From the NCBI GenBank assembly GCA_041753395.1, contig JBGSUQ010000001.1:221948-285947 (forward strand): a stretch of DNA of 64,000 nucleotides, given 5' to 3'. This stretch comes from Spirochaetota bacterium. GTDB lineage: Bacteria; Spirochaetota; UBA4802; UBA5550. A model generated the notes under the pieces. The model searched no databases, was not told where the DNA came from, and worked only from the letters and a program-made list of their open reading frames with translations. The position numbers were made by a program, and so were the translations under genes. Each line of letters opens with the position of its first letter. The stretch's first letter is position 1. This document shows positions 47,576 through 63,615 of this stretch, in pieces.

Positions 47576-47668
47576 GCCCCCTAAATCCCCCGGAGGGGGA
47601 CTTATGAAAGTGCGGCTTCGCAATCGTGCTCACTGAGGATAAGCCCCCCTCCAGGGGGTTGGGGGGGT
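47576..47668. repeat. G/C-homopolymer hairpin cluster, family D copy 2 (C5-GGA-G5 and C6-TCCA-G5 hairpins followed by G7)
   Basis: cccccggaggggg ... cccccctccagggggttgggggggt, between the pgk stop and the next ATG. It may also act as the pgk terminator. Confidence 0.5.
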
Positions 47669-47697
47669 GCTCAGGCACACCTATTATCGTATGCAAA

Positions 47698-49485: not shown

Positions 49486-49512
49486 AGCCTTTTCCTTTTT
49501 CTTATACGACTT

Positions 49513-50790
49513 TCAGATTACATCAAGAACCACAAGGGTAATGTCGTCATCAAAGATGTCTGAGTCGGCGAAACGCCGGAGTTCCTCCAGGAGAAGGCCG
49601 CAGAACTCGGCAGGCGGCTGGCCGGGATGATCCAGGATAAAGTCCTTGAAGCGTGCGAGGCCGAACATTTGCCCCCTGGCGCTGAAGCATTCGGTAATCC
49701 CATCGGTATAGAGAACCAGACGGTCGCCCGGCGATAATTGAACGTTTATTTCCTCGATCCCGGGGTTGGCCAGCCAGCCGAGGGGCTTGCCATGCGGTAT
49801 TATTTCCTCAATAACGCATGTACCGCGCCGGTAAAGGAGCGGCGGAAAATGACCAGCTCTGGCACAATGCATCAAGCGGTCATGGCAGTCTATCACGCAG
49901 TAAACGGCCGTGACAAAATTATTATTAACCGTCGACCGGAGTACCGCCTCGTTCAGCCTGGCTAGTATTTCGGCGGTAGTACCGCTTGACCGCTCATATT
50001 CAAAGGCCATTTTTGTGATGGTCGCAAGAAAGGCGCTCGACAGGCCGTGCCCGGTAACATCGGCTATGAAGAGGTCAACGGTGTCATCAGTTACGTGATA
50101 ATCGTAAAAATCGCCTCCCACTTTTTCCATGGGACGATACACGGCGTGCAGGGAATATCCCGGGATCTCCGGCACTATCCCGGGAAGCAGTCGAAGCTGG
50201 AGCCGGCGCGCAACTTCGAGCTCGTCCTCGACCCTGGTCCGCTCCCTCCGGAAGTTGTCTACAATGATTTTAATCATAATACCTGAGGCGAGAAGCCATG
50301 CGGTACAGTTGATCAGAAAATCTATCCATCGCTCCCCCTGTCCCCGATAGGTTTTCAGGGGGAAAATAGAGAGGCTCTCAACCCACGTCAGGGCCATGAT
50401 GACCGCCGGTACCAGCAGGAAAAAAACAATACGGCGGCGGCCCTCCAGGGACAGGAGCACAAACAGGGTGATGAACTGAAAGAAGAGATGTGCGTAACCA
50501 ACTGATCCATAACCGGTGAACCAGATAATACACAGGCTGATAATCCCTGCCATGATAAGGAAGAGCACGGCGGTGATGTTGTGGAAGCGCGATAGATAAT
50601 AGAGATAAAAACCCGTAACGGCGATGAATAGAATTGTGGCCACATGGAACAAGCGTATATCAAGAACGAAGGTAAGCGGCAGAACAATTATCGTCGTAAG
50701 GGAGGTAAAAAAAGTAAGGGCGTTATAAATCCTGTGTTCAAGTCTTGTCTTGTTTGGATCACCGATGATAGTCGCAAGAGAAAACTTCAT
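49513..50790 (-). CDS. PP2C-type Ser/Thr phosphatase (SpoIIE/RsbU-like) with an N-terminal multi-TM sensor region
   Basis: About 6-7 TM helices, then GGDFYDY...DVTGHGLSSAFL...GDRLVLYTDGITE, which are the PP2C / SpoIIE motifs. Confidence 0.8.
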   Translation of the reverse strand: MKFSLATIIGDPNKTRLEHRIYNALTFFTSLTTIIVLPLTFVLDIRLFHVATILFIAVTGFYLYYLSRFHNITAVLFLIMAGIISLCIIWFTGYGSVGYAHLFFQFITLFVLLSLEGRRRIVFFLLVPAVIMALTWVESLSIFPLKTYRGQGERWIDFLINCTAWLLASGIMIKIIVDNFRRERTRVEDELEVARRLQLRLLPGIVPEIPGYSLHAVYRPMEKVGGDFYDYHVTDDTVDLFIADVTGHGLSSAFLATITKMAFEYERSSGTTAEILARLNEAVLRSTVNNNFVTAVYCVIDCHDRLMHCARAGHFPPLLYRRGTCVIEEIIPHGKPLGWLANPGIEEINVQLSPGDRLVLYTDGITECFSARGQMFGLARFKDFILDHPGQPPAEFCGLLLEELRRFADSDIFDDDITLVVLDVI

Positions 50791-50889
50791 AGCATAAAGT
50801 ATATGAAATTATTTCATCCTGTCAACAGCAATTTCAGATTCTTTTATCTGATTCAACCTCCTGAAAGAACTACTATCATAAGCGGTGTA

Positions 50890-51750
50890 TCACCCGGAAT
50901 GGACGGTTGCACGCGTTTCGAAAAAGCTGAATATAGTAATTGATAAGAGAATAACAATACCACCGGCGATTGCCCACGCCCCCGGAAGCTCACCCATTGC
51001 GATGAAGACCCACAAGGGATTAAGGAGCGGCTCTATAACCGGGATGAGAATCGCGTCAAGAGCCGGCACATGCCTGATGGCGCGCGAGTAAAGCACGTAT
51101 GACAGGCCGAGCTGGAATACTCCGAGGAGAGCCAGGGACGCCATGCCGGTCATCGACGGCAGGGGCCCTGACATGTGCGGCAAGCAGATGAGCACCGTAA
51201 GGACATTACCTAGGAGGATAGACTCCGTGGGGGATCCGTGCTTCTGCATTCGCAGGAAGATCACCATGAAGGCCATAGTGACCCCGCTTATAAGGGCAAG
51301 AACATTTCCGATGAAACCGCCCGGGGTAAGCCTGTCGAAGAAAAAGAGGACGACTCCAGCGAGGGTTGTGAGCACCATGAGCCCCGTCCGCTGCGAGACC
51401 CCTTCTTTAAGAAGCAGGGCCCCCAGCAGGGCGACATAGACGGGACAGGCATACTGGAGAACAATGGCGTTAGCAGCCGTTGTCATCTTGTTCGCCAGCA
51501 CGAATAATATGACCGTGGCCGAGTAGGACACGGCGCCGCCGATCTGCGGCAGCGACCACACGAAGCGGGGACGGCGCAGAAATAACGCCACCACCAGGGC
51601 GGCGATGGCACTTCGGGTCCCGGCAATAGCAAAGGGATTCCAATCCACGGATTTGATCAGCAATCCGCCCATGCTCCAGAGGACCGCGGCGCCCGCCAGC
51701 ATCAGAACTGCCCTGCCGCGGGAGCTGTCCGCGGGCCTTTCCTTCAACAT
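50890..51750 (-). CDS. EamA/DMT-family 10-TM transporter
   Basis: 286 aa with two EamA-like halves, each with 5 TM helices. An AGGTGAAA SD precedes it. Confidence 0.7.
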   Translation of the reverse strand: MLKERPADSSRGRAVLMLAGAAVLWSMGGLLIKSVDWNPFAIAGTRSAIAALVVALFLRRPRFVWSLPQIGGAVSYSATVILFVLANKMTTAANAIVLQYACPVYVALLGALLLKEGVSQRTGLMVLTTLAGVVLFFFDRLTPGGFIGNVLALISGVTMAFMVIFLRMQKHGSPTESILLGNVLTVLICLPHMSGPLPSMTGMASLALLGVFQLGLSYVLYSRAIRHVPALDAILIPVIEPLLNPLWVFIAMGELPGAWAIAGGIVILLSITIFSFFETRATVHSG

Positions 51751-52151
51751 ATCATTTCACCTATACTGAAAACCTATCGTGTTCAATCCGGAGCGGCAAT
51801 AATGGGTAATGTCCCCTTCAAGGGCAAGGAATTTTTAAGATTATTATAGTATGACTTTTTTCATCTGAAGGGAGCTGTCCCAGCGAGCAGGCGACATGGA
51901 TGTCGCCGATTCCGCCGAGTTAATCCCGATTCCATATAAAGTAAAAAGGTATCGGGATTATACGAGGCGGACGACCGGGACATCTCCCTGCAGAAATATT
52001 TATTCCTTGATTATTTTCACCCATCAGACACAATGTGAAAAATCGTGTCCGGGTCCTCATTCATATTTACGCGAAATATCAATTTAAAGAAGCCTGCGCT
52101 GGTGAGGGCTTCAATACCCGGCAGATAATCACTTTGATCTGGAGAAAATCG

Positions 52152-53078
52152 ATGCCTCCCAAAAAATCAGCCACCAAGCTCATAGTAGTGGTTCCAGCCT
52201 ACAACGAAGCGGAGCGTATAAGCGACACGCTGAAGGCGCTGAGGGCCATACACGGGACATTAAAGAAACAGAATATTGATTTTTACGTCTATGTGGTTGA
52301 TGACGGGTCAAAGGATGATACACGCGCCGTCGCCCAGGCCGCAGGGGCCGACCGCGTACTGCGGCACAAGATCAACCAGGGCCTCGGCGCAGCCATCCGC
52401 ACCGGTCTTTCAGCGGCGGAAAAAGACGGCGCGGACATCGTGATTAAATTCGACGCCGACCTTCAGCATGACCCCAATGACATACTCGATCTGATCAAGC
52501 CAATCCTCGAGGATTCGGCGGACGTTGTCTACGGCAACCGCTTCAACCGCATCGAGTACCGGATGCCTTTTGTCCGCCACATCGGAAACAAGGTTTTTAC
52601 CGGCCTCATGCGCTTTCTTACCGGATGGCCTCTTAAGGACAGCCAGCCGGGCATATTCGCCATCAACCGCGATTACCTGAACGTTTTCAATCTGCCCGGC
52701 GACTACAATTACACCCAGCAGATACTCCTTGACTCATATCACAAAGGGATGCGCTTCGCCCACGTAGACGTCAGTTTCAGGAAACGCGTTACGGGAAAAT
52801 CATTTATTTCGCTCAAGTACCCTTTTAAAGTCGGGTTCCAGATCCTCATGGTGCTGGTAATTGTTGAGCCGATGAAGATTTTCGGCACCATTGGCCTGGT
52901 ATTCCTGTCGTCCGGGCTCATTTTATTTCTCGTGGAATTGCTTCTTTACATCCTGGGGTACAACCCGAAGCCCGTGGTGCATGTCAACGCGGTGCTGGGC
53001 TGTCTTTTCATGGGCCTGCAGACCTTCTTCTTCGGCCTGCTTGCCGAGATCATCAAAAAAATTGGCCGCAACCGGTGA
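52152..53078 (+). CDS. Family-2 glycosyltransferase, polyprenyl-phosphate sugar transferase type (ArnC/DPM/GtrB-like) with two C-terminal TM helices
   Basis: The start is MPPKKSATKLIVVVPAYNEAERI with a GGAGAAAATCG SD. VVDDGSKDDT, the DAD motif (KFDADLQHDP), and C-terminal TM helices are present. The ORF-track start at 52035 is too far upstream. Confidence 0.8.
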   Translation: MPPKKSATKLIVVVPAYNEAERISDTLKALRAIHGTLKKQNIDFYVYVVDDGSKDDTRAVAQAAGADRVLRHKINQGLGAAIRTGLSAAEKDGADIVIKFDADLQHDPNDILDLIKPILEDSADVVYGNRFNRIEYRMPFVRHIGNKVFTGLMRFLTGWPLKDSQPGIFAINRDYLNVFNLPGDYNYTQQILLDSYHKGMRFAHVDVSFRKRVTGKSFISLKYPFKVGFQILMVLVIVEPMKIFGTIGLVFLSSGLILFLVELLLYILGYNPKPVVHVNAVLGCLFMGLQTFFFGLLAEIIKKIGRNR

Positions 53079-53112
53079 CCGACAGCCCATCCGGAACAGG
53101 AACCGTAATATC

Positions 53113-54141
53113 ATGGCAGAAGATACACCAAGGCCGGTCCCGCCGGCAACATCCGACGAGATAATCAGTGAGCGCAAGCGCAGGATTTTCAGCATAAAAA
53201 CGCTGGTCTTCTTCGTCCTCTCTCTCTTTCTTATATGGTTTCTCCTGCAAAAAATCGATTATAAACGGACTTTTGACGCCTTTCTCCTCGCCAGGCTTGA
53301 TATGCTAGTATATTCGTGTCTCGCCTACACGGCCGCCAACATATTCAAGACCCTGCGGTATTCCCTGCTGCTGAAAAACCTGGACCTCGGCTTCTTCGAC
53401 CATTTTACCGTTTCAAGCTATCAGAATTTTTTCAACCAGATACTGCCCGCCCGTACCGGTGAGCTCACTTTCGTTTATTACCTGAAACAGTTCAGCAATG
53501 CACCTCTTTCCACGGGCCTCCATATCCTTCTCCTCACGCGAATCTTCGACTTCATCGTTGTTTCCGCATTCTTCGTCGGCTCCCTGCTTTTTTATTACGG
53601 CCGGCAGACGTCGGGCATGCTGCTTGCCGCCGGGGTGCTGTTTTTCATTGTTTCGGTGATTCTGTTATTCAATCTCAAGTGGCTGGTGTTTCTCGGGGCG
53701 AAGATATTTACCGTGACAGTGCGGGCGCTCCACCTCGGGTCCATCGGGTTCGTTAAAAAGATCGAATCAAAAATCGACCCCATCGTCAGCGAGTTTTCAC
53801 GGTTTGAGACAATGCGCCATTTACCCGGACTGGCAATGTCGAGCCTTCTTGTCTGGACGGCTTTGTATCTGTTTTCGTATCTTACCCTCCGGGCTTTCGG
53901 CGTCGATATCGGCCTCCTGCTCTCCATTGCCGGGTCCACCGGCGGCGTGCTCGCCAATGTACTTCCCATAAACAGCTTCGGGAGTTTCGGCACCCTTGAA
54001 GCGGGATGGACGGCAGGATTCGTTCTCGTCGGCGTATCTGTTCAGGACGCAATCACAACCGGTTTCGGTTATCATATCATCAACTTTTCCGTAAGCGCCA
54101 TTCTAGCCCTTTTCTGCTACATGGTCCAGAGATTCAAATAA
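53113..54141 (+). CDS. PF03706-like (lysyl-PG-synthase TM / UPF0104) polytopic membrane protein, putative flippase partner of the GT2 enzyme
   Basis: The start is MAEDTPRPV at 53113. The frame runs on from the previous gene. There are about 8 TM helices, with FNQILPARTGELTFVYYLKQ. Confidence 0.55.
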   Translation: MAEDTPRPVPPATSDEIISERKRRIFSIKTLVFFVLSLFLIWFLLQKIDYKRTFDAFLLARLDMLVYSCLAYTAANIFKTLRYSLLLKNLDLGFFDHFTVSSYQNFFNQILPARTGELTFVYYLKQFSNAPLSTGLHILLLTRIFDFIVVSAFFVGSLLFYYGRQTSGMLLAAGVLFFIVSVILLFNLKWLVFLGAKIFTVTVRALHLGSIGFVKKIESKIDPIVSEFSRFETMRHLPGLAMSSLLVWTALYLFSYLTLRAFGVDIGLLLSIAGSTGGVLANVLPINSFGSFGTLEAGWTAGFVLVGVSVQDAITTGFGYHIINFSVSAILALFCYMVQRFK

Positions 54142-54445: not shown

Positions 54446-54474
54446 AAAAAAAGCCCCTGATTAATGCAGGGGCT
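54446..54474 (-). terminator. Rho-independent terminator of ppdK
   Basis: The minus strand reads cccaaaGCCCCTGcattaatCAGGGGCttttttt. Confidence 0.6.
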
Positions 54475-54499
54475 TTGGGATTCTCGTTTGATGTAGTAC

Positions 54500-57106
54500 T
54501 TATTCCGCCTTTTCCTGGGCCACTTTTATATTTATCTGGGCGATGCCCAGCTTCGCCAGTGGTATCGCGTAGGGCGAACAGGAAACATAGTTCAACCCCG
54601 CATCCATGCAAAACTGGATATTTTCCGGCGCTGCCCCATGCTCACCGCAGAGGCCCATCTTGATGTCCGGTCTTGACAGCCTTCCGCGAAGGGAGGCAAT
54701 CCCGATTAGCTCCTTCACTTCGTCGCCGAGATACTTGAAAAGGTTTGATTTCATCAGGTCAAACAGCGAATAACTCGGGAAGAAAGAGTTCGAATCATCC
54801 CGGGACAGACCGTACGTGGTCTGGGTCAGGTCGTTCGTGCCAAAGCTGAAAAATTCCGCATACTGGGCGATCTCGCCGGCACCCAGGGCTGCGGCTGGAA
54901 GCTCGATCATCGTTCCAACCTTGTAGTCGAGATCCTCAATGCCGTATTCCTCAACCACCTCGTTCTTGATGTCACGTATCCCCTTGACTTCTTTCCCTTC
55001 GATCTTCTTGCCGTTCTTGATAAACTTGATCTCTTCCTTGCTCATGACGATAGGGATCATGATCTCGGGCTCTATCTTGTGCCCCTCTTTCCGCAGCATG
55101 CACGCCGCCTCGAATATGGCGCGGCACTGCATCTCATATATTTCAGGAAATGTTACCGCCACCCGGCACCCGCGGTGTCCCAGCATCGGGTTCATCTCGC
55201 CCAGTTCTTCGCACCGGGCTATGATATCGGAGGCCCTATTGCTCCGGTCCCTGCCCTGCATGTACTGGACGAATATCTTCATGCTGTCTTCGGTCCTCGG
55301 CAAAAATTCGTGTAGCGGCGCATCAAGGAGGCGGATGGTAACCGGGTGACCTTCCATAATTTTAAAAAGGTCATAGAAATCGGACCGCTGCATCGGGAGA
55401 AGCGCCTTCAGCACCTTGCGGCGCTCCTCTTCGGAGTCGGCTATGATCATCTCGCGGAACTTCATGATCCGCTTTTCGTTAAAGAACATGTGCTCTGTCC
55501 GGCACAGCCCGATTCCCTTTGCCTTGAAGTCCTTGGCCACCAGGGCGTCACGGGGCTGGTCAGCATTGGCCCGCACGTTAAATGCACCTATTTGCTTTTC
55601 CACGATGTCCAGGAACTCAAAAAGTCCGTTACTCTTCCAGTCGGGCTCTATCAGTTCGACCTTGCCCATGAATATGGTTGGCGCCTCATAATAGGGAACG
55701 CTCATAGACACGTAATCGCCTTCATAGACGGTTTTACCGCCAAGGGTGAAGCTGTTGCCCCTTATTTTCATCTCGGGCTGGACCATGGCAACCTTGCCCA
55801 GACTCCGCGCAACAACCGGTGCGTGGGATGAAAAACCACCTTCGCAGGTAATGACGCCCTGGGCAACTTCGATCGCCTTTACATCTTCGGCAAATGAGGC
55901 CGGCATGACCAGTATGAATTTCGAGTCGCCGCCTTTCATGATGGCACGCTTATGCTCCTCGAGTAGCTTCGGTGTCGAGAAAAATACCCGGCCTATAGCT
56001 GCTCCGGTTGATCCGGCTATACCACCCTTGATGAACTTTACCCCCTTAGTCGTCCTGGGATCGATGACCGGGTGCAGGAGCTCATTGAGCTGATTCGGTT
56101 TTATCTTCTCGATCGTATAGGAATCGGAAACAATTTTCCGCTTCGTGAGGTCAAGAAGCGCCTTTATCTGGGACTGCGTTGACTTGTCATCGACCTCTTT
56201 CTGCTCAACGAGCCAGAAATCACCCTCTTCAATGGTGAACTTGATCTCGCGTATTTCCTTGAAGTTGTCCTCTATCTTGTGGGCAATTTCGGTAAAATGA
56301 GTGAAGTGCTTTTTTTCTATTTTGCTTATATCCTTTGCTTTTCCGGCCTGGATGTCGAATTCGCTCTGGCCGAACTCTCCCTGAATCTCCGGATCACCGG
56401 TCACGATGTTCCTGGTGTAGTAATTGCCCGCGTAGGAATTGTCTCCCCAGTTGCCATACACCATTACCTGCACCATGATTGACAGCGAATTGTCCACGTC
56501 GATGGTTGAGTCGCAGTAGCGTGACGATGCACCCTTGATTATAAGGCTGAGCTGGTCATATACGTCTTCACTGAATTTATCGGCGAAAAGTGCACGGTAG
56601 GATTCGATGGCCCTTTTGAGATCGTCAATTCCGGCCTTCTTTGCAATTTTTCCTTCTATCTGCTTCAGCTCTTTTTCGTCAACCTCGTAGATTTTTCTCG
56701 CCATGTTCCTGAGTAAAAACAGGTATTCGCCATAGGCAAATTCCATGCCGGTATATTTTCCGAAGGCCTCAACTGTCATGCTATTCATGCCTATGTTGTG
56801 TATGGACGGGAAGTGCGGTACATTCAGATCAGAACTTAAGACGACTTTTAACATGAGCGGTTTGTCGACATCGCCGTATTTCTTTTTTGTGTCCTTTTCC
56901 AGCTGGCTGATATAGGTGCTTAATATTTCTTTTAAATTGATCTGTGGGAGTTTCTGCGTGAGGACTGAATCGATGATAAAACCAGGTACAATGGGAAGGC
57001 CCATCATTGCAAGATCAACGGCCCTTCTGCCGCGTATTCCCAGACGCTGCCGGACTTTATCATCAACATCTTTCAGGTTTTTATTAAAGTATACAATATT
57101 TTCCAT
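54500..57106 (-). CDS. ppdK: Pyruvate, phosphate dikinase
   Basis: 868 aa with the PEP-utilizing enzyme signatures (GGRTSHAAI-like GGFSSHAPVVARSLG, and a ...NDLTQ region). An AGGAGA SD precedes it. Confidence 0.95.
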   Translation of the reverse strand: MENIVYFNKNLKDVDDKVRQRLGIRGRRAVDLAMMGLPIVPGFIIDSVLTQKLPQINLKEILSTYISQLEKDTKKKYGDVDKPLMLKVVLSSDLNVPHFPSIHNIGMNSMTVEAFGKYTGMEFAYGEYLFLLRNMARKIYEVDEKELKQIEGKIAKKAGIDDLKRAIESYRALFADKFSEDVYDQLSLIIKGASSRYCDSTIDVDNSLSIMVQVMVYGNWGDNSYAGNYYTRNIVTGDPEIQGEFGQSEFDIQAGKAKDISKIEKKHFTHFTEIAHKIEDNFKEIREIKFTIEEGDFWLVEQKEVDDKSTQSQIKALLDLTKRKIVSDSYTIEKIKPNQLNELLHPVIDPRTTKGVKFIKGGIAGSTGAAIGRVFFSTPKLLEEHKRAIMKGGDSKFILVMPASFAEDVKAIEVAQGVITCEGGFSSHAPVVARSLGKVAMVQPEMKIRGNSFTLGGKTVYEGDYVSMSVPYYEAPTIFMGKVELIEPDWKSNGLFEFLDIVEKQIGAFNVRANADQPRDALVAKDFKAKGIGLCRTEHMFFNEKRIMKFREMIIADSEEERRKVLKALLPMQRSDFYDLFKIMEGHPVTIRLLDAPLHEFLPRTEDSMKIFVQYMQGRDRSNRASDIIARCEELGEMNPMLGHRGCRVAVTFPEIYEMQCRAIFEAACMLRKEGHKIEPEIMIPIVMSKEEIKFIKNGKKIEGKEVKGIRDIKNEVVEEYGIEDLDYKVGTMIELPAAALGAGEIAQYAEFFSFGTNDLTQTTYGLSRDDSNSFFPSYSLFDLMKSNLFKYLGDEVKELIGIASLRGRLSRPDIKMGLCGEHGAAPENIQFCMDAGLNYVSCSPYAIPLAKLGIAQINIKVAQEKAE

Positions 57107-57145: not shown

Positions 57146-58054
57146 CTAGAAAAGCCTCAGCACCTGGCCTACTCCAATTTTCAAAAATTGTTCGAAACGC
57201 GTGCTGGCTCCCTCAAAAAGGTATTTCTGGAGTTTCGATACTCCCTTGATATTCTCACCGGCAACCTGGAAAAAAATTGAATCGCCATGCTTTACTTTGC
57301 CCCATTTAAACAGGGAGTTAATGTCATTGACCAACTCGCCGCCGTGAAATATATAAACTTTCAGATTCGGATATGTTGTGGTGTAGCTTTCGACTATCTT
57401 TTTCCACGCCTCGACATTGCCGTTGTGAAAAAGCTCATTGGAAACCTCAACTGCATACTTTGGCGTGATGTTGGCTATCCCCTTGCCTGGCTCTTCGACC
57501 TTTTTATCTTTCTTCACCGGTTTTCTCTGGACCACGGTCTGATCGATAAAGGCCTTGTTAATAAAAACATCCTTGCCCGACAGCATCTCTTCCAGGGTGC
57601 TGATCGCCGCCTTCTCGATCTTCTTATTGTCCTCTTTAAGGAATTTCATAAAAATCACCATCAACTGGTCAGTGTGAAGCTCCCTGACGCGTTCCCAGTG
57701 ATCGGGATTTTTTGGATTGATTAGAAATATTTTCCCCCCTGGATTGTAGTACACGCATACTATGTCAAGGGCGGTCCATTTCGATGTCTCTTCTGCAATT
57801 TTCTCAAACTCCGTAACCGGTTCAATTATATTGTACGAATCATAGCTGTAGCCGTATTTATCCCGAATGACAGAGCCAACGATCGGCAGTATCTGGTCTT
57901 CGGCGACTTCATTGGCATCAAGCTCGTCATTGATGACATCAGCCAGGTTTTTATTCATTTCAATTTCATCAACAACTTCAGTCACCTTGTAAAAGTGCCT
58001 GAGGGCCTTATTGAAATTTGATTTGGATGCCAATGCGAAATAAGTGCTCTCCAT
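57146..58054 (-). CDS. Hypothetical protein (no recognisable domain)
   Basis: 303 aa from MESTYFALASK (ATG 58054, GGGAGT SD 6 nt upstream). About 43% GC. Confidence 0.5.
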   Translation of the reverse strand: MESTYFALASKSNFNKALRHFYKVTEVVDEIEMNKNLADVINDELDANEVAEDQILPIVGSVIRDKYGYSYDSYNIIEPVTEFEKIAEETSKWTALDIVCVYYNPGGKIFLINPKNPDHWERVRELHTDQLMVIFMKFLKEDNKKIEKAAISTLEEMLSGKDVFINKAFIDQTVVQRKPVKKDKKVEEPGKGIANITPKYAVEVSNELFHNGNVEAWKKIVESYTTTYPNLKVYIFHGGELVNDINSLFKWGKVKHGDSIFFQVAGENIKGVSKLQKYLFEGASTRFEQFLKIGVGQVLRLF

Positions 58055-58298
58055 GGTTGTACTCCCTTTTAACGAGTTTTGGCAGGGGAAATAAAAGCTG
58101 ATTTTGATGCAACGATCATACTCCATGGACACCCTTGCCGGATACAAAGGTCACGGTGTTTCAGGATTATTATATCCCCGTATGGTTGATAATATAAAAG
58201 TTCCTCCATTAATTGCAAGCATTTTGTACAAGGAAATGCAATAAATGGATCTCGTTCGGTCCGTTATCATCGGCAGGCATTTTTTAAATTAAGTATGA

Positions 58299-58334
58299 AA
58301 ACAAAAGAGGCTGACTCATCAGAGCCAGCCTCCC
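58299..58334 (-). terminator. Rho-independent terminator downstream of the 648-aa gene
   Basis: The minus strand reads GAGGCTGgctctgatgagtCAGCCTCttttgtttt. Confidence 0.5.
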
Positions 58335-58372
58335 GGTTGTTTCAATACTGTTCAGGATTATGTATCTATATT

Positions 58373-60319
58373 CTATAGTTCTTTCAATCCTGATTTTTTC
58401 ATCGGCTGTTTTGATTTAGGCGACAGGCTTACCGTACCGCTGATCTCGCTGGGCTGCGCTGTCTTATATGCTTCTTCTATAATACTCGCGCTTGTATCTT
58501 CCGTGACAAATGACTGGTCGATATCTTCCCGTTGCGTCGATCTGCGCCTTGTGTACTGCGCGAAGGCGGCATCGGAGAATCCCTTCGATACGCCGTAGAG
58601 GAACTCGTTCAGCACGTTCGCCATACCTTTCAGCATGAACTGCTTTCTCTTGATAGTCGCAATATCGATATCGAGAATCAGTCCCGGCTGTATGTGGTGC
58701 GGATTCACACGATACGTAAACTCGTTGAATCTCTTGATCATAAAGTTGATCCTCTCGTCCAGGATAACGCGCTCCACCGGGTTCTGGTAGCCGTGCATCT
58801 TTTGCAGCATATCTTTCAGGTAATTCAGCTTGTTCTTCAGGTTGATTATCCTGTTTTCATAGGTCCTGTTATTCTTTTCCACGAAGGAATCTTCAGGATA
58901 CATTTCGCCGATTTCGTTCCAGAGAATGTTTTCAGGATCCTCTTCGCGCTCTTTCTTGGCCCGCTTCCATTCTTTAGACATGATCCTGGAGGCCAGGTCA
59001 TCGAAGTCTTTCAGTGAACGGAAACGTTTCTTGGACTCATAGTAGCCATGACAAACGTCCCAGCACATCTTGATCTCGGTAGAGAAAGAATCCATCTGCT
59101 TGTCGAACTCTTTCTTTTCCACCTTGAGCTGGTTCTGATCGTAGAAGGCCAGCCTCATGGCATACCGCTCATCCGGAAGAATCGAGGTGTCGGTTTCTTC
59201 ATATTCACGGATATGGCATATCCGGGCATTCTTCATGTTATTGCACACCTGGTAGCCCAGTTTGCTGGTGTCGAGGATCGAGGTGATGTTGTTAATGGCC
59301 GTGTTGTAGCCGCGGTTCCGGACGTTCTCCTCGTCGATGATGAATTTGATGTTTTCCCTGATATTGAGGGGATCGAAGTCTTCAACATCGATCTCGGCCC
59401 TGAGGCCCTCGATCTTATCAAGGAACTTTTTGGCAAGGATTGTGTACCGTTTCGATTTCTCGTCGTCTTTTTCATCGTCGGTGAAATTTTCAATCCGTTT
59501 AATCTTCTCGAACATCTTCTCGCTGCCGGTAAGCTCGCGTTTTCCCTGGTCGACCAGTTCGTCGTTGAAAGCCTGTACCTGGCGGTCAATCAGATCCTGA
59601 ACGTGCTTCTGGATAGCATCTTTAAGGAGGTTCTCCACCGTCACCTGATAGTGATACATCGGGCTGATGAGTTCACTCTCAAGTATATTGATCGAAAGCT
59701 TCACGTCATATACATACTTGGGCCGGTATTCATTGTCTTTGAAAACGCACTTTAATATAGCATATGCGTTCTGGCCACGGACGAAAGCACCGATGTCAGT
59801 TTTCTGGCGAAGTATCGAGTTGGTATCAGTTTCAAGGTCGTTAACGCCCCGCTGAATATGGCCCTGAAGGTGACCGTACATATTGATGATGGACTTCTCA
59901 ATTTCACCGGTATGGAACTTGTCCGGGCCGGCAATCTTGTCCATGAGCTCGATGATTTCCCTCGGTGTATACCGTGCAAGACCGCGGAGCTCTTCCTTGT
60001 CGACGAAGTCCCGAATCTTTTTCATGAACTCGTCTTCCATGGTTACTGTATAGCGGTTGAACATGTTGACATAGGTCTGGTTTATGTAATTATACAATTT
60101 CTCTTTTAAACCGCCCATGACCTCCATCTTAACCAGAACTTCCTCGGGCAATTTTGTAATAATTTGATTCACAACCCGGTCGGTGGTTTCGTTAATAATC
60201 AGTCGCTGTTCAGCAATTTTATCACGTCCTTCCTGCGCGTATGATTCGTGTGAACCCACGGCATTGGGGATGGTCGGGTGAAACTTGTTTGGACTTTTAG
60301 GAAATTGTGTAAAAGCCAT
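58373..60319 (-). CDS. Hypothetical large (648 aa) charged, predicted helical (coiled-coil-like) protein
   Basis: A strong AGGAGG SD lies 8 nt upstream. No recognisable catalytic motif. About 45% GC. Confidence 0.6.
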   Translation of the reverse strand: MAFTQFPKSPNKFHPTIPNAVGSHESYAQEGRDKIAEQRLIINETTDRVVNQIITKLPEEVLVKMEVMGGLKEKLYNYINQTYVNMFNRYTVTMEDEFMKKIRDFVDKEELRGLARYTPREIIELMDKIAGPDKFHTGEIEKSIINMYGHLQGHIQRGVNDLETDTNSILRQKTDIGAFVRGQNAYAILKCVFKDNEYRPKYVYDVKLSINILESELISPMYHYQVTVENLLKDAIQKHVQDLIDRQVQAFNDELVDQGKRELTGSEKMFEKIKRIENFTDDEKDDEKSKRYTILAKKFLDKIEGLRAEIDVEDFDPLNIRENIKFIIDEENVRNRGYNTAINNITSILDTSKLGYQVCNNMKNARICHIREYEETDTSILPDERYAMRLAFYDQNQLKVEKKEFDKQMDSFSTEIKMCWDVCHGYYESKKRFRSLKDFDDLASRIMSKEWKRAKKEREEDPENILWNEIGEMYPEDSFVEKNNRTYENRIINLKNKLNYLKDMLQKMHGYQNPVERVILDERINFMIKRFNEFTYRVNPHHIQPGLILDIDIATIKRKQFMLKGMANVLNEFLYGVSKGFSDAAFAQYTRRRSTQREDIDQSFVTEDTSASIIEEAYKTAQPSEISGTVSLSPKSKQPMKKSGLKEL

Positions 60320-60533
60320 GTATTATTCCTCCTTAATTTCGCTACGCTTTTAAATTCATGTCTATATGCATCTATTCAAATGGAATTATATATATTTTAT
60401 AAAATGTAGTATAATAGTAATGAAGAATATTCTGTCAAGATTATTTCTAAAAATTCTTCAATGTAACCGTCAAATAATATCGTCCTCTTCTATTATTCTT
60501 ATAAATATTCAACTATTCACCGTACCCTCGTTA

Positions 60534-61667
60534 TTAAGCAAAATATTTAAATGAATAATTACCAACTTTAAATATATCGCCATCCTGGAGGAGTCCGTCC
60601 GCCTGGCGGTTCACCATCTCAACCCTGGCGCTCTCATTATCCATCAGTTTCATCCTGATTGCCCCCTCATGCCTGATGGCCTTTATCATAATGGGCTTCT
60701 TAATGGTGATGTCCCGTACATTCACAACGCACCCGAGGCCCTTGCCGATCATGACTTCCCGGGCAGGTCTGCGGGCCAGGTCAAAATGCTGCATGTAAGG
60801 CTCGATAATCTCCGTGTTCCAGTACTCCAGCTTGCCGACTACCTTGAGGTCCGCGAGCCTCTTCACAAAGAAGAGTATGGCCAACACGAGAAGTATGCAG
60901 GCGCCTGCAATTATGATCGGGATGAGAATGCTTCTGCCTTCGGATTCCTTTCTTTTTTCGTCCTGGATCAGCTCCTGCTTGCCCTTTTCCGGATCGCCGG
61001 CCTGTATGACCTTGACATTATCAGAAATGAGGCCCAGCTCCTGCTCCATTTTTTTTGCTGCCTCGCTTTTCATTCCCGGGCTAAAGCTCAGCACATAAAC
61101 CCAAAGTTTTGATTTCTTTCCATACTTCTTCGCAAAATCCACAAAATCAAATTTTTTATCTCCCGGAGGGGGATCGTCAATGGCATCGGTCATGATGACG
61201 ATCTCGGTCTGCCGCCCATCTTTCTTGTCGAGGTTTTCCGCTGATTGCAGAACCTGCGTTATCATTTTATAAGTATAGGTCCAGAGGCCGGTCGCTTCGG
61301 TCATGGTTATGTATTTTTTTAGGATATCCCTGTCGTTATCATCGTCCACGATTACCGTCGGATATATTCTCACGTCCGTATCGAAGGTCACGAAGGTGAC
61401 GCGATCGCCATCCTCGACCTGGTCGATATAATCGCTGATGCTGCGCTTGACATCGTTCAGGATATCCTTCCCGCCGGCACGCCCGATCATGCTCATTGAA
61501 GTATCGAGGACCATTATGAGATCCTTGCTCTGCCTGGCCATACAATCCATTGACGCCAGGGTAAACTGAGCCACCATCAACAGCACGAATAGTGGCAGTA
61601 TAGCTTTACATAATTTCCTTCCCAAAATAGTTCTCCTCTTTTTATTTTTGGGTTCTTCCAGATTCAT
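60534..61667 (-). CDS. Two-TM protein with a periplasmic von Willebrand factor A (VWA) domain and a divergent C-terminal cytoplasmic FHA-like domain
   Basis: A signal anchor precedes the VWA MIDAS motif (LIMVLDTSMSM = DxSxS, ...TDAID). A TM helix (ILIPIIIAGACILLVLAILFFV) follows. The C-terminal ~100 aa (VMIGKGLGCVVNVRD...GDIFKVGNYSFKY) resemble an FHA fold but lack the canonical SxxH/NGT residues. A GGGGAG SD precedes it. Confidence 0.5.
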   Translation of the reverse strand: MNLEEPKNKKRRTILGRKLCKAILPLFVLLMVAQFTLASMDCMARQSKDLIMVLDTSMSMIGRAGGKDILNDVKRSISDYIDQVEDGDRVTFVTFDTDVRIYPTVIVDDDNDRDILKKYITMTEATGLWTYTYKMITQVLQSAENLDKKDGRQTEIVIMTDAIDDPPPGDKKFDFVDFAKKYGKKSKLWVYVLSFSPGMKSEAAKKMEQELGLISDNVKVIQAGDPEKGKQELIQDEKRKESEGRSILIPIIIAGACILLVLAILFFVKRLADLKVVGKLEYWNTEIIEPYMQHFDLARRPAREVMIGKGLGCVVNVRDITIKKPIMIKAIRHEGAIRMKLMDNESARVEMVNRQADGLLQDGDIFKVGNYSFKYFA

Positions 61668-61961
61668 CGACTCCCCGGATATCCCAAAGGAATAAAAAAA
61701 TTGGGTTACGATTACTAGTGCCTAGATATTTGATATTCCGGGTTAATGGACTGCCCCATCGAATTGATAAATAATAATATGAATATTTGAATATATGTCA
61801 AGAATATTAATCGAATTATACAAAATTATATTCCAATAATCGGTTGTTTTTATTCAATTTCTCCCGGCAGAAATTTAGGGTCTTTATCATTATCCAGTAC
61901 CTATATTCCCTGATTTACAGATTAGATATTGTTATTTTCACAAACAATAGTCCTATGAATC

Positions 61962-61985
61962 AAAAAAGCCCTCCCGCGAGGGCTC
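61962..61985 (-). terminator. Rho-independent terminator downstream of the gene at 62018..62734
   Basis: The minus strand reads AGCCCTCgcggGAGGGCttttttg. Confidence 0.55.
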
Positions 61986-62017
61986 AATTTGGGCGGCTGT
62001 ATAATGAGGCGGCTCAT

Positions 62018-62734
62018 CTAAAACTCATTATAGATAATTTCTTTTTTCACATAGTTCCTGAAATCGATGGCACGGTCCTTCTTCAGTTCCAAATATTCGT
62101 TCATAAGTATGAAAAACCACATAAAGGTGTCATCATTGGTTTCCAGGGCGATGAAGCTTCTTTTTTCCCGCCAGTTTTTTACTACTATTCCTTTGTGCAT
62201 AACCATGAGAATATCCAGCTCATACTGGTACTCTATATTCTTGGAAAGATAGAAATTGACGATATCGTTCTTCAGCTCCTGGAACTCATATTTCGTTGAC
62301 GACACCACCACGAAGGAAGGTATATGCACCCGTTCCTCCTCTTCGGCAGGGGCGGCATACATGTTCAATTTTTTCGCAGTGGCTATTTTGCTCAGTACCT
62401 CTATCAGCGAATCCTTGTTCAGTGTCGGGACCATGTGAATCAGTCCGTAGATAAGCTCATACGGAACATATCCGCCCATCAAATTGAGAATATCGCGGCA
62501 ATACTCGTCATATATCACGAGGTCCGCCCCGTCGGGCGAAAAACCGGACGAATCGATAGGTTTGACCGGAGCTATTTTCAGATTCGATTGGATTATGCCG
62601 GAAAGGTTGTCCCTGAACAGGTCCAGGTCGATGGCGCCCCGGGAAGCACCCTTCCCTTTCTTGGGTGCCGCCGCATTATCGGTCTTCTTTGTATAAAGCT
62701 TCTTATCATAATCCTTGAAAAATTTTGATATCAT
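62018..62734 (-). CDS. Hypothetical protein
   Basis: 238 aa with an AGGGGT SD. It has its own terminator. Confidence 0.5.
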   Translation of the reverse strand: MISKFFKDYDKKLYTKKTDNAAAPKKGKGASRGAIDLDLFRDNLSGIIQSNLKIAPVKPIDSSGFSPDGADLVIYDEYCRDILNLMGGYVPYELIYGLIHMVPTLNKDSLIEVLSKIATAKKLNMYAAPAEEEERVHIPSFVVVSSTKYEFQELKNDIVNFYLSKNIEYQYELDILMVMHKGIVVKNWREKRSFIALETNDDTFMWFFILMNEYLELKKDRAIDFRNYVKKEIIYNEF

Positions 62735-62865: not shown

Positions 62866-63615
62866 TGCCTTTTTCACTACAACGTCAGTATTAATATCTT
62901 CCCCATGCCGTCTCGACGAAGGGAGATAGATCAATGAAAAAGTAAATATCCAATCAATATAATGATGTCAATGAATAATTTCGAGAAAAAATCAAATAGC
63001 TTCATGAAAAAATAACCGGCCTGTGGTTTTTTTCCGTGCCGTTTAACAAAAAATATCAGGAAAAACCGGTTTCCCTGTAATTATCATTGAAAAAGGCCGC
63101 CATAATAGGGCAACAGGAAGCATGGTTGTATGTTTTTTCTAAACTATAATAAAAAACTTGTTGATATATAAACCCTTGATTAACTTATAAGAAGCCGCCT
63201 GCGCTGTTGGTGATAGGAATTATATTTTTTTGAACCTAAAGCTTTTTAGGGATCCCAATATTTGGCTGCAATGGTCATGCCCCTCACGGGGAAGGCCTGA
63301 TCTGCCGTGCGGGAACCCACCTGGTATCAGGTTCAAAAAGCTTTCCTACACGGCAGCGCGGGTTTTTTTATTGTCCCCCGTTCTGAATTATTATTGCCAA
63401 TTGCCGCGCCCCTGTTCTATTGTCGTAATATGATAATCCAATCTGTGGCAGTGATGACCCATTGTTTTTTATGGACAGGATTAACAGGATAATCAGGTTT
63501 TGAAAGGAAGCAACAATAATCAAGTGACGGTATGTCGTAAAACCTGAACGGAACAATCCCGTTAATCCTCAAAATCCTGTCTTGAGATTTTATAATGCAC
63601 AAGCTCCTCATTCCA

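What the first reader, a model, noticed from the sequence alone, without database searches (positions are those of the whole stretch)
57146..62734. Run of four low-GC genes of unknown function including a VWA-TM-FHA-like membrane protein
Four co-directional ORFs of 303, 648, 377 and 238 aa have about 43-46% GC, against about 55% in flanking ppdK. None has a recognisable domain, except the 377-aa protein. That one combines a periplasmic VWA domain (MIDAS DxSxS), a TM helix, and a cytoplasmic FHA-like C-terminus lacking canonical phospho-Thr-binding residues. VWA-FHA modules normally partner with Ser/Thr kinases and PP2C phosphatases. A PP2C is present about 10 kb away (49513-50790), but no kinase is in the window. 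At least three of the four genes have their own rho-independent terminators (61962-61985 and 58299-58334 among them). They are therefore probably not a single operon. The block may be an acquired unit, either trans-envelope signalling or a defence/stress module.
Basis: partly seen in the sequence, partly recalled or inferred. Interest (0 to 1): 0.55.

Follow-up and report, generated by a model that had tools for sequence, protein, structure and literature searches.

The report
Spirochaete cytoplasmic-filament (cfpA) gene neighbourhood
The four "unknown" genes are the conserved chromosomal neighbourhood of cfpA, the gene for the cytoplasmic filament of spirochaetes. This is mostly ordinary, but two uncharacterised neighbours are candidates for the filament's still-unidentified membrane anchor and partners.

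Summary
The four minus-strand ORFs are real, but the block is neither anonymous nor acquired.

- **648-aa protein:** CfpA, the spirochaete cytoplasmic-filament protein (NCBIfam NF040882, 876 bits against a cutoff of 500).
- **302-aa protein:** belongs to the TP_0747 family and lies 39 nt upstream of a PPDK-like gene. Its AlphaFold model contains an HPr-like fold.
- **238-aa protein:** a NucC-like (DUF6602) protein. The family lacks the nuclease E-x-K motif.
- **377-aa protein:** signal peptide, periplasmic VWA domain with MIDAS, TM helix, and a cytoplasmic FHA-like domain without phosphothreonine-binding residues.

Synteny: the order 238–VWA–cfpA–TP0747–ppdK recurs in 78 species-level genomes of uncultured Spirochaetota. 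VWA lies next to cfpA in 64/65 testable loci. The core ppdK–TP0747–cfpA–VWA order also exists in Treponema pallidum (TP0746–TP0750).

Composition: the GC deficit is small (44–48% against a gene mean of 51 ± 5%). It sits mainly at codon position 2, so it reflects amino-acid composition.

PP2C: this gene lies in an insertion shared only with the closest relatives.

Best reading: this is a vertically inherited cytoskeletal locus. The idea that the VWA–TM–FHA-like protein anchors the CfpA ribbon to the membrane is an inference, at about 0.3.

The parts
62018..62734 (-). 238-aa NucC-like (DUF6602, PD-(D/E)xK fold) protein with a Lys/Ala-rich N-terminal tail. It is predicted to be catalytically inactive.
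   Evidence: PADLOC NucC effector, E=1.4e-9, over residues 51-230. A family profile hits solved NucC structures 7zgv (1.7e-6), 6uxf (3.2e-5) and 6p7o (4.4e-4). DUF6602 matches 18 of 22 members. NucC's E-V-K aligns to H/F-x-V/I in 63 of 63 members, while D71 is invariant.
61966..61985 (-). Intrinsic terminator after the 238-aa gene.
   Evidence: Stem of 8 pairs with 5 GC pairs, followed by a T-run.
61774..61801 (-). Sigma-70-like promoter upstream of the VWA gene.
   Evidence: TTGACA-16-TATTAT, 11 of 12 matches. This is a consensus match only.
60534..61667 (-). 377-aa bitopic membrane protein: cleavable signal peptide (about residues 1-44), periplasmic VWA domain, TM helix, cytoplasmic FHA-like domain.
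   Evidence: A homologue lies directly upstream of cfpA on the same strand in 64 of 65 testable loci.
61002..61526 (-). VWA domain (residues 48-222) with MIDAS residues D55-x-S57-x-S59, T130 and D161.
60855..60926 (-). Transmembrane helix (residues 248-271), followed by K/R residues on the cytoplasmic side.
   Evidence: AF2 helix 248-271. The alignment shows a hydrophobic block followed by KR.
60540..60833 (-). Cytoplasmic FHA-like beta domain (residues 279-376) that lacks the Arg/Ser/His phosphothreonine-binding residues.
   Evidence: pLDDT 86-95 and all-beta. A profile hits the FHA domains of aprataxin (E=0.03), a GGDEF protein (0.077) and Ki-67 (about 1). Pfam Yop-YscD_cpl matches 3 of 29 members, FtsK_SpoIIIE_N 2 and FHA_2 1. 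Invariant residues are G278, W283, P290, G308, N353, G363, D364, N370 and F373.
60411..60438 (-). Sigma-70-like promoter of cfpA in the 214-nt AT-rich spacer. An AAGGAGG ribosome-binding site precedes the ATG.
   Evidence: TTGACA-16-TATTAT, 11 of 12 matches. Sequence read directly. No terminator lies between the VWA gene and cfpA.
58373..60319 (-). cfpA, the cytoplasmic filament protein A (648 aa).
   Evidence: NCBIfam NF040882, E=1.4e-263, 876 bits against a cutoff of 500, model positions 2-604 of 605. 46% identical to Treponema primitia CfpA. 755 bits to Leadbettera azotonutricia CfpA.
58305..58334 (-). Strong intrinsic terminator after cfpA.
   Evidence: Stem of 13 pairs with 7 GC pairs, followed by a T-run.
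58169..58198 (-). Sigma-70-like promoter upstream of the 302-aa gene.
   Evidence: TTTATA-18-TATAAT, 10 of 12 matches. This is a consensus match only.
57146..58054 (-). 302-aa TP_0747-family protein with two alpha/beta domains. At least one has an HPr-like fold. The C-terminal domain is nearly invariant and carries H210.
54500..57106 (-). PPDK-like PEP-utilising enzyme (868 aa), 39 nt downstream of the TP_0747-family gene with no terminator between. It lies outside the finding but belongs to the same transcription unit.
   Evidence: Pfam PEP-utilizers_C, E=2.6e-69. TIGR01828 scores 678 bits, below its 843-bit cutoff. Junction sequence. Adjacent in 50 of 58 testable loci, median gap 34.5 nt.
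54450..54476 (-). Intrinsic terminator after ppdK.
   Evidence: Stem of 10 pairs with 6 GC pairs, followed by a T-run.

Best explanation
The region is the vertically inherited cfpA locus of an uncultured environmental spirochaete.

**cfpA.** It encodes the subunit of the cytoplasmic filament ribbon that, in treponemes, runs under the inner membrane parallel to the periplasmic flagella.

**Two conserved gene modules flank it.**
- Downstream lies the ancient TP0747-family + PPDK pair. It is transcribed separately from cfpA, behind a strong terminator. The same order occurs in T. pallidum, Leadbettera, Treponema sp. TIM-1 and a third deep lineage.
- Upstream, in this lineage, lie a NucC-like protein without the nuclease motif and a bitopic protein. 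The bitopic protein puts a MIDAS-containing VWA domain in the periplasm. It also places an FHA-like, non-phosphopeptide-binding domain within a few residues of the cytoplasmic face of the membrane.

**Shown:** the family identities, the protein architecture, the synteny, the absence of foreign-DNA signatures, and the transcription signals as consensus matches only.

**Inferred (about 0.3):** the VWA–TM–FHA-like protein is a structural adaptor. It would tether or position the CfpA ribbon at the membrane and couple it to a periplasmic ligand.

**Inferred (about 0.3):** the TP0747-family protein works with PPDK through an HPr-like domain.

The low GC reflects Lys/Glu/Asn/Ile-rich proteins, not horizontal transfer.
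For: - **CfpA identity:** (876 bits against a cutoff of 500).
- **Synteny within the lineage:** 78 loci. VWA–cfpA 64/65, 238-aa gene 61/64, TP0747 59/69, ppdK 50/58.
- **Upstream trio is robust:** the 238–VWA–cfpA trio persists in two sub-lineages where the downstream genes were replaced by different genes (L027, L054).
- **Deep conservation of the triad:** cfpA–TP0747–PEP-utiliser occurs in Leadbettera, Treponema sp. TIM-1 and a distant lineage, L082, with 2-6 nt gaps.
- **T. pallidum order:** ppdK-0747-cfpA-0749-VWA(0750) (PMC8525777 supplement).
- **Composition:** GC analysis. No tRNA in the window.
- **Wider synteny:** a conserved 6S RNA lies upstream and PGK downstream.
- **Architecture of the 377-aa protein:**
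- **Literature:** filaments lie just under the cytoplasmic membrane (PMC13398306). Bridging and anchoring components were seen by tomography, but only the title of Izard et al. 2004 could be read.
Against: - Nothing physical links the VWA–TM–FHA-like protein to CfpA. The only evidence is adjacency.
- The wider neighbourhood (6S RNA, PGK) is also syntenic, so adjacency could be passive.
- No homologue of the 377-aa or 238-aa protein was found in the Treponema, L082, L083 or L084 cfpA loci. It therefore cannot be a universal anchor.
- The small Treponema VWA neighbour shows no specific similarity to it and is divergently oriented.
- Each gene has its own promoter-like site.
- HPr similarity is fold-level only.
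Confidence: 0.7

Rival explanations
1. Passive synteny. cfpA is the only cytoskeletal gene here. The VWA–TM–FHA-like protein is an independent envelope protein (adhesion, quality control or Bat-like). The NucC-like protein is an unrelated degenerate nuclease relic or DNA-binding protein. The TP0747-family protein serves PPDK or central metabolism. The genes stay together only because this chromosomal region rarely rearranges.
For: - Synteny extends beyond the block to 6S RNA and PGK.
- Separate promoter-like sites and two terminators are present.
- Homologues of the 377-aa and 238-aa proteins are absent from the Treponema and other cfpA loci.
- TP0747 and ppdK are 20-40 nt apart, whereas TP0747 is separated from cfpA by a terminator.
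Against: - VWA–cfpA adjacency holds in 64/65 loci although VWA identity falls to 31%.
- It survives two independent replacements of the downstream flank.
- An insertion occurred between ppdK and PGK, but none between VWA and cfpA.
- A VWA gene also flanks cfpA in T. pallidum, Leadbettera and TIM-1.
- cfpA–TP0747–ppdK recurs in three deep lineages.
Confidence: 0.35
2. A Ser/Thr-kinase and PP2C-coupled VWA–FHA signalling module. The FHA-like domain reads a phosphothreonine mark written by a kinase and erased by the PP2C about 10 kb away.
For: - VWA and FHA-like domains are combined in one protein.
- A SpoIIE-type PP2C lies at 49513-50790.
- CfpA carries an invariant RRRST motif that looks like a basophilic-kinase site.
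- The solved ArnAB complex is among the VWA fold matches.
Against: - The FHA residues that bind phosphothreonine are not conserved. Arg is replaced by K/R/N/S and the Ser-x-x-His pair is absent. No Pfam FHA (PF00498) hit was found.
- The PP2C sits in an insertion found only in the window and L001-L003. In 32 other loci PGK directly follows ppdK.
- No kinase lies in the conserved block.
Confidence: 0.07
3. A horizontally acquired defence or stress island, with the NucC-like protein as effector.
For: - The 238-aa protein matches NucC effector models.
- Gene GC is slightly below the window average.
Against: - The catalytic E-x-K is absent in 63/63 members.
- No defence-model hits above noise were found for the other three proteins.
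- No cyclase or CRISPR partner lies in the block.
- The gene is present at the same position in 61/64 species.
- GC3 is normal.
- No tRNA was detected in the window; integrases and flanking repeats were not searched for.
Confidence: 0.03

Closest known systems
Treponema cfpA locus (T. pallidum TP0746 ppdK – TP0747 – TP0748 cfpA – TP0749 – TP0750 VWA – TP0751 pallilysin)
   Same: The window has the same core order, ppdK – TP0747-family – cfpA – VWA-domain gene. CfpA clears the equivalog cutoff. The C-terminal domain of the TP0747-family protein is nearly invariant between the two lineages.
   Different: - Here the VWA gene is co-directional with cfpA and encodes an extra TM helix plus a cytoplasmic FHA-like domain.
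- The Treponema neighbour is a short secreted VWA protein. It is divergently oriented in Leadbettera and TIM-1 and shows no specific similarity.
- No pallilysin or TP0752 gene is present here.
- This lineage has an added NucC-like gene.
YscD/EscD/PrgH-type and EssC-type membrane-anchored FHA-like domains of secretion systems; mycobacterial FhaB/FipA (from my own knowledge)
   Same: Each is a bitopic membrane protein whose cytoplasmic FHA-fold domain lacks, or does not need, phosphothreonine binding and acts as a structural docking module. The only Pfam models that recur among family members are Yop-YscD_cpl and FtsK_SpoIIIE_N.
   Different: - Domain order and topology differ. Here the protein is N-out and C-in, with a periplasmic VWA domain instead of ring-building domains.
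- No secretion-system genes lie nearby.
- The matches are weak (E of 0.003 or higher) and appear in a minority of members.
NucC, the cA3-activated endonuclease of CBASS and type III CRISPR systems
   Same: Homology spans nearly the full length to NucC models and solved structures. The first catalytic Asp is conserved.
   Different: - The E-x-K of the active site is replaced by H/F-x-V/I throughout the family.
- No cyclase or CRISPR partner is present.
- It is a fixed core-genome gene with a Lys/Ala-rich N-terminal tail.
HPr, the PTS phosphocarrier that partners Enzyme I, a PEP-utilising enzyme homologous to PPDK
   Same: - Its gene abuts a PEP-utilising enzyme.
- An invariant His (H210) sits in the loop between the first strand and first helix of the C-terminal domain.
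   Different: - No sequence or profile similarity to HPr was found.
- The protein is 300-360 aa with two such domains and an N-terminal helical region.
- Which domain matched HPr could not be determined.
- Phosphotransfer is untested.
Archaeal ArnA (FHA) / ArnB (VWA) and bacterial VWA–FHA–kinase–PP2C modules
   Same: A VWA domain is combined with an FHA-type domain. ArnAB appears among the VWA fold matches.
   Different: - Here both domains are in one membrane-spanning polypeptide, on opposite sides of the membrane.
- The phosphothreonine-binding residues are missing.
- No conserved kinase or phosphatase partner was found.

Membership tests
CfpA (NCBIfam NF040882; Pfam CfpA_C PF27473) | Full-length match to the curated equivalog model above its cutoff | tested here: met
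   E=1.4e-263, 876.2 bits against a cutoff of 500; residues 6-605 on model positions 2-604 of 605.
CfpA (NCBIfam NF040882; Pfam CfpA_C PF27473) | Homology to named Treponema CfpA proteins | tested here: met
   46% identity to T. primitia ZAS-2 CfpA. 755 and 748 bits to the Leadbettera azotonutricia and Treponema sp. TIM-1 proteins. T. pallidum, T. denticola and T. phagedenis proteins were not compared directly.
CfpA (NCBIfam NF040882; Pfam CfpA_C PF27473) | Same genomic context as treponemal cfpA (TP0747-family and ppdK next to it) | tested here: met
CfpA (NCBIfam NF040882; Pfam CfpA_C PF27473) | Assembles into a cytoplasmic filament ribbon beneath the inner membrane | not testable with these tools
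   This needs microscopy of an organism from this uncultured lineage.
VWA domain with MIDAS | Pfam VWA above the gathering score, and the VWA fold | tested here: met
   [not shown]
VWA domain with MIDAS | MIDAS residues DxSxS…T…D | tested here: met
   D55, S57, S59, T130 and D161 are invariant in 44 family members.
Canonical FHA domain (phosphothreonine reader) | Match to the Pfam FHA model PF00498 | tested here: not met
   No PF00498 hit for any of 29 members at E up to 10. Only Yop-YscD_cpl (3 members), FtsK_SpoIIIE_N (2) and FHA_2 (1) matched.
Canonical FHA domain (phosphothreonine reader) | FHA beta-sandwich fold | tested here: inconclusive
   The model is all-beta at 279-376 with pLDDT 86-95. 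A profile hits the FHA domains of aprataxin (0.03), a GGDEF protein (0.077) and Ki-67 (about 1). A fold search on the isolated domain was not possible.
Canonical FHA domain (phosphothreonine reader) | Conserved Arg (beta3-beta4 loop), Ser-x-x-His (beta4-beta5 loop) and Asn that bind the phosphopeptide | tested here: not met
   After invariant G308 the residue is K, R, N or S. No conserved Ser or His lies in the following loop. Only N353 is invariant.
VWA–FHA–Ser/Thr kinase–PP2C signalling module | Conserved neighbouring kinase and PP2C genes | tested here: not met
   The SpoIIE/PP2C occurs only in the window and L001-L003, inside an insertion. PGK follows ppdK in 32 other loci. No kinase lies in the conserved block.
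NucC endonuclease (CBASS / type III CRISPR effector) | Sequence homology to NucC | tested here: met
   PADLOC PDLC00745, E=1.4e-9, and PDLC01051, E=4.6e-5. Solved NucC structures at E=1.7e-6 to 4.9e-3.
NucC endonuclease (CBASS / type III CRISPR effector) | Intact PD-(D/E)xK active site (Asp … Glu-x-Lys) | tested here: not met
   D71 is invariant. The positions aligned to NucC's E and K are H/F/N and V/I/C/T in 63 of 63 members.
NucC endonuclease (CBASS / type III CRISPR effector) | Adjacent cyclic-oligonucleotide synthase or type III CRISPR genes | tested here: not met
   The conserved neighbours are 6S RNA and the VWA gene. The other three proteins give no meaningful defence-model hits.
TP_0747 family (Pfam PF27497) | Membership of the Pfam family named after T. 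pallidum TP_0747 | tested here: met
   All 120 listed homologues carry PF27497, including one 91% identical. A profile of the window family hits the Treponema and L082 proteins at E=1e-71 to 1e-83. The local Pfam copy lacks this model.
HPr (PTS phosphocarrier, PF00381) | HPr fold | tested here: met
   [not shown]
HPr (PTS phosphocarrier, PF00381) | Sequence-family membership and an active-site His15 in context | tested here: inconclusive
   No Pfam, PDB-profile or hhalign similarity to HPr. Invariant H210 lies in a topologically equivalent loop, but the residue-level structural alignment was not available.
Horizontally acquired genomic island | Deviant composition, patchy distribution, and mobility genes or tRNA flanks | tested here: not met
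   GC3 is within 1.5 sd of the window genes. The genes are present in 59-64 of about 65 species at the same position. No tRNA lies in the window.

The most novel reading that the evidence does not exclude
The cfpA neighbours may encode the long-unidentified accessory parts of the spirochaete cytoplasmic-filament system.
- The VWA–TM–FHA-like protein would be a trans-membrane anchor. It would dock the CfpA ribbon to the inner membrane through its degenerate FHA domain and fix it, through the periplasmic MIDAS site, to a periplasmic structure such as the flagellar bundle or the cell wall.
- The short periplasmic VWA protein next to cfpA in Treponema (TP0750) would be the remnant or counterpart of this coupling.
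- In the same reading, the TP0747-family protein is an HPr-like partner of PPDK or of the filament. This would link a PEP-utilising enzyme to the cytoskeleton.
Probability: 0.25. Interest if true: 0.7.

Novelty: new variant of a known kind. Interest (0 to 1): 0.42.

Why it matters
CfpA filaments matter for cell division, chromosome structure and virulence in Treponema denticola (PMC3398590). Tomography reported bridging and anchoring components, judging from the title of Izard et al. 2004. To my knowledge, none of these has a gene assigned.

This analysis contributes three things.
- CfpA and its TP0747–PPDK neighbours are widespread in environmental Spirochaetota, not only in Treponema.
- It nominates concrete, testable partner genes: a VWA–TM–FHA-like membrane protein, a nuclease-dead NucC-like protein, and the TP0747 family.
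- It gives the first structural hint (an HPr-like fold next to a PEP-utilising enzyme) for TP0747. This is a conserved "hypothetical" protein of the syphilis agent for which a full-text search found no paper.

For the genome scan itself, the result is mainly a correction. The block is a known, vertically inherited locus, not an acquired island.

Tried and rejected
- **Exact look-up of the window CfpA** in the contig collection: not on record.
- **Local Pfam and NCBIfam on the 302-aa protein:** nothing. The family name came only from precomputed labels.
- **Sequence-level tests of the HPr idea:** all negative. The one PDB hit, an RxLR effector, is a short motif coincidence.
- **Orthology between the 377-aa protein and the Treponema TP0750-like neighbours:** no phmmer or profile hit. 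Only weak, sub-threshold Pfam VWA hits for the latter.
- **Homologues of the 377-aa and 238-aa proteins in the cfpA loci of Treponema and three other lineages:** none.
- **T. primitia ZAS-2 cfpA copy P0242:** no synteny, probably a paralogue.
- **Fold search of the whole 377-aa model:** dominated by the VWA domain, so it says nothing about the C-terminal domain.
- **afdb50 library:** unavailable.
- **Papers not held:** the key CfpA papers (Izard 1999, 2001, 2004, 2008; You 1996; Liu 2010) could not be read, so only their titles are used.
- **PilZ idea:** a PilZ-like reading of the C-terminal domain (RxxxR … NxSxx motif) was considered from the sequence. It was dropped because those residues are not conserved in the family.
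- **Defence-system models for the other three proteins:** noise only.

Full report
**1. Observation**

The four ORFs exist as described, all on the minus strand:
- 62018-62734 (238 aa)
- 60534-61667 (377 aa)
- 58373-60319 (648 aa)
- 57146-58054 (302 aa from the ATG preceded by AAAAGGGAG; the mechanical ORF from an upstream TTG is 333 aa)

An 868-aa PPDK-like gene follows at 54500-57106, 39 nt after the 302-aa gene.

No terminator follows the 377-aa or the 302-aa gene. The next one is after ppdK, at 54476-54450 (sequences).

Sigma-70-like hexamers with 10-11 of 12 matches lie upstream of the 377-aa gene, the 648-aa gene and the 302-aa gene. The likely units are therefore:
- the 238-aa gene alone
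- the 377-aa gene, possibly reading into cfpA, which also has its own promoter
- the 302-aa gene together with ppdK

These are consensus matches, not measured transcripts.

**2. Composition**

The window is 50.0% GC. A set of 45 non-overlapping long ORFs averages 51.4% GC (sd 4.6).

| Gene | GC % |
|---|---|
| 302-aa | 43.7 |
| cfpA (648-aa) | 46.8 |
| 377-aa | 48.1 |
| 238-aa | 43.9 |
| ppdK | 50.1 (not 55) |

Ten other window genes are at or below 48.1% GC. Third-position GC of the four genes is 0.55-0.63, against 0.64 with sd 0.06. Second-position GC is 0.27-0.32, against typically about 0.38. The modest deficit therefore reflects Lys/Glu/Asp/Asn/Ile-rich proteins rather than foreign codon usage. 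No tRNA gene lies in the window.

**3. The 648-aa protein is CfpA**

It matches the NCBIfam equivalog for cytoplasmic filament protein CfpA end to end (E=1.4e-263, 876 bits, cutoff 500).

An exhaustive HMMER search of 1.84 billion cluster representatives found 216 relatives. The named ones include Treponema primitia CfpA at 46% identity. The Leadbettera azotonutricia and Treponema sp. TIM-1 proteins score about 750 bits against it.

In T. pallidum, cfpA is TPANIC_0748 (PMC8525777). Cytoplasmic filaments lie just beneath the cytoplasmic membrane and run parallel to the periplasmic flagella (PMC13398306). The T. denticola cfpA mutant shows filamentation, chromosome condensation and loss of virulence (PMC3398590).

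**4. The 302-aa protein belongs to the TP_0747 family**

The protein has 3199 homologues, and all 120 listed carry Pfam PF27497. Other outputs name this family TP_0747_N. The local Pfam copy does not hold this model, which explains the empty result.

An AlphaFold2 model (pLDDT 77.6) shows an N-terminal helical region and two beta-alpha-beta-beta-alpha-beta-alpha domains, at about residues 70-158 and 197-290, joined by a disordered linker.
- Foldseek against PDB is likewise dominated by HPr and Crh (probability up to 0.98, TM 0.64 normalised to the target). No E-value falls below 0.04.
- No sequence or profile similarity to HPr was found.
- I could not determine which of the two domains produced the match.

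The C-terminal domain is almost invariant from this lineage to Treponema and to a third lineage. The conserved motifs are NELFHNGNVEAWK…INSLFKWGKV…GAS, with invariant H210.

The neighbouring enzyme is a PEP-utilising enzyme, and PTS Enzyme I belongs to the same superfamily. An HPr-like partner is therefore an attractive idea, but it is untested. The enzyme itself scores 678 bits on the PPDK equivalog, below the 843-bit cutoff, so I call it PPDK-like.

**5. The 238-aa protein is NucC-like but lacks the nuclease motif**

- The PADLOC NucC effector model matches residues 51-230 (E=1.4e-9).
- A family profile hits solved NucC structures (7zgv 1.7e-6, 6uxf 3.2e-5, 6p7o 4.4e-4).
- DUF6602 matches 18 of 22 members.

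In the printed alignment, NucC's E-A-V-Y-A-V-L-E-V-K-P-T-I-N-K aligns without gaps to E-L-I-Y-G-L-I-H-M-V-P-T-L-N-K. Across 63 family members, the positions of NucC's Glu and Lys are H/F/N and V/I/C/T. The upstream Asp (D71) is invariant.

The N-terminus is a Lys/Ala-rich tail of variable length. The simplest reading is a non-catalytic protein with a restriction-endonuclease fold, possibly DNA-binding.

**6. The 377-aa protein**

- **Signal peptide:** a positively charged N-terminus, a hydrophobic stretch and a nearly invariant Ala at position 44 suggest a cleavable signal peptide.
- **Membrane span:** helix 248-271 is followed by K/R residues.
- **C-terminal domain:** residues 279-376 are a confident all-beta domain. 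A profile of this domain weakly but consistently finds FHA domains: aprataxin 0.03, the FHA domain of a GGDEF protein 0.077, Ki-67 about 1.
- **Pfam on the C-terminal domain:** the only recurrent models are the FHA-like cytoplasmic domains of YscD and EssC/FtsK.
- **Phosphothreonine-binding residues:** the Arg/Ser/His that contact phosphothreonine are not conserved.

The protein therefore places a metal-dependent adhesion domain in the periplasm. It places a degenerate FHA-type docking domain directly at the cytoplasmic membrane face.

**7. Conservation of the neighbourhood**

A scan of one genome per species (185,579 species) returned 78 loci, all from uncultured Spirochaetota MAGs. Several were labelled Leptospirales by their depositors. 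CfpA identity in these loci is 67-97%.

| Gene | Present at expected position, same strand | Identity range | Median gap |
|---|---|---|---|
| 377-aa | 64/65 (the exception is a split alignment) | 31-93% | 227 nt to cfpA |
| 238-aa | 61/64 | 34-89% | 190 nt to the 377-aa gene |
| TP0747-family | 59/69 | 55-91% | 235 nt from cfpA |
| ppdK | 50/58 | 67-94% | 34.5 nt from TP0747 |

In two sub-lineages the downstream pair is replaced by different genes. One has a K+ channel and a cNMP-binding protein. The other has squalene and polyprenyl synthases. The 238–VWA–cfpA trio stays intact in both.

Outside this lineage:
- cfpA–TP0747–PEP-utiliser is found in Leadbettera azotonutricia and Treponema sp. 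TIM-1.
- It is also found in a distant lineage with 2-6 nt gaps and a second CfpA paralogue.
- In T. pallidum the order is ppdK, 0747, cfpA, 0749, then the VWA protein 0750.
- Three other CfpA-encoding loci show no such context: the second T. primitia copy, L083 and L084.
- The 377-aa and 238-aa families were not detected in any of these non-lineage loci.
- The short Treponema neighbours give only sub-threshold VWA hits.

Synteny extends further. A 6S RNA gene lies divergently upstream of the 238-aa gene in the window (63193-63368) and in 6 of 8 sampled loci. PGK lies convergently after ppdK in 32 loci.

In the window and its three closest relatives only, an insertion separates ppdK from PGK. 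It carries an LPG-synthase-like gene, EamA, the SpoIIE-type PP2C and a 619-aa protein with no family.

**8. Interpretation**

Three points are secure.
- This is the chromosomal cfpA locus of an environmental spirochaete.
- It is inherited vertically.
- It consists of an ancient module (cfpA, TP0747-family, ppdK, and perhaps a VWA neighbour) and a lineage-specific upstream module (NucC-like protein and VWA–TM–FHA-like protein).

Function is inferred from position and architecture only. I favour, at about 0.3, the idea that the 377-aa protein is a structural adaptor for the ribbon.
- Its FHA-like domain sits where the filaments lie.
- It resembles the non-phospho-dependent docking domains of YscD and EssC.
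- The adjacency has survived divergence to about 31% identity and two flank replacements.
- A VWA gene also abuts cfpA in Treponema.

Several points count against this.
- The family is absent from the Treponema loci.
- The whole region is syntenic.
- There is no interaction evidence.

The main rival (about 0.35) is that the neighbours are functionally independent. The kinase/PP2C signalling reading (about 0.07) and the acquired-defence reading (about 0.03) are disfavoured by the tests in the membership table.

**9. Novelty and score**

CfpA is a known family, and NCBI's pipeline already annotates it in such MAGs. The following appear undescribed in the literature I could search:
- the lineage-specific gene set around cfpA
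- the nuclease-dead NucC-like protein
- the fold-level HPr resemblance of the TP0747 family

A full-text search for TP0747 found no paper. The key CfpA papers were not readable. I rate the finding a new variant of a known kind, of moderate interest.

Noticed in passing
window 63193-63368 (+): A 6S (SsrS) RNA gene (Rfam RF00013, 81.6 bits against a gathering score of 46.4) lies in the ORF-poor stretch upstream of, and divergent from, the 238-aa gene. The same arrangement occurs in 6 of 8 related loci sampled.
   Followed up: partly
window 58373-58560 (CfpA residues about 587-648); loci L001-L078, L080, L081: The CfpA C-terminal region carries an invariant RRRST motif that resembles a basophilic-kinase site. 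It is conserved from this lineage to Treponema and Leadbettera. The extreme C-terminus is invariant as SGLKEL here, and reads ALKEV, ALRQL or IREI in Treponema-group proteins. These may be modification or docking sites.
   Followed up: no
window 47626-54141: An insertion separates ppdK from the otherwise convergent PGK gene. It carries a 619-aa protein with no Pfam family, a SpoIIE-type PP2C, an EamA transporter and an LPG-synthase-TM protein. It is present only in the window and its closest relatives L001-L003.
   Followed up: partly
window 54500-57106 (-): The 'ppdK' scores 678 bits on the PPDK equivalog TIGR01828, below its 843-bit cutoff. The Pfam PPDK_N match is weak (25.7 bits, residues 258-313 only). 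It may be a divergent PPDK subfamily that always travels with the TP0747-family gene.
   Followed up: no
L082 7001-14550; L079: Some genomes carry two CfpA_C paralogues. In L082 they flank the TP0747–PEP-utiliser pair. T. primitia has a second copy in an unrelated context next to giant Big-domain proteins.
   Followed up: no
proteins P0418-P0522: Many Treponema CfpA homologues are named 'cytochrome c oxidase subunit II' in public records. This looks like a propagated mis-annotation.
   Followed up: no
P0248, P0391: Full-length CfpA homologues also appear in a freshwater-mussel (Potamilus streckersoni) assembly and in a MAG labelled Deltaproteobacteria. These are probably contamination or mis-binning, but could be real occurrences outside Spirochaetota. 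The latter locus sits near flagellar and chemotaxis genes (FlaG, CheZ).
   Followed up: no
L080 7266-7841, L081 7160-7720; T. pallidum TPANIC_0750: A short secreted VWA-like protein is encoded directly next to cfpA in the Treponema group. It is TP0750, the reported pallilysin partner. Its position mirrors that of the 377-aa VWA protein here, although no specific sequence similarity was detectable.
   Followed up: partly
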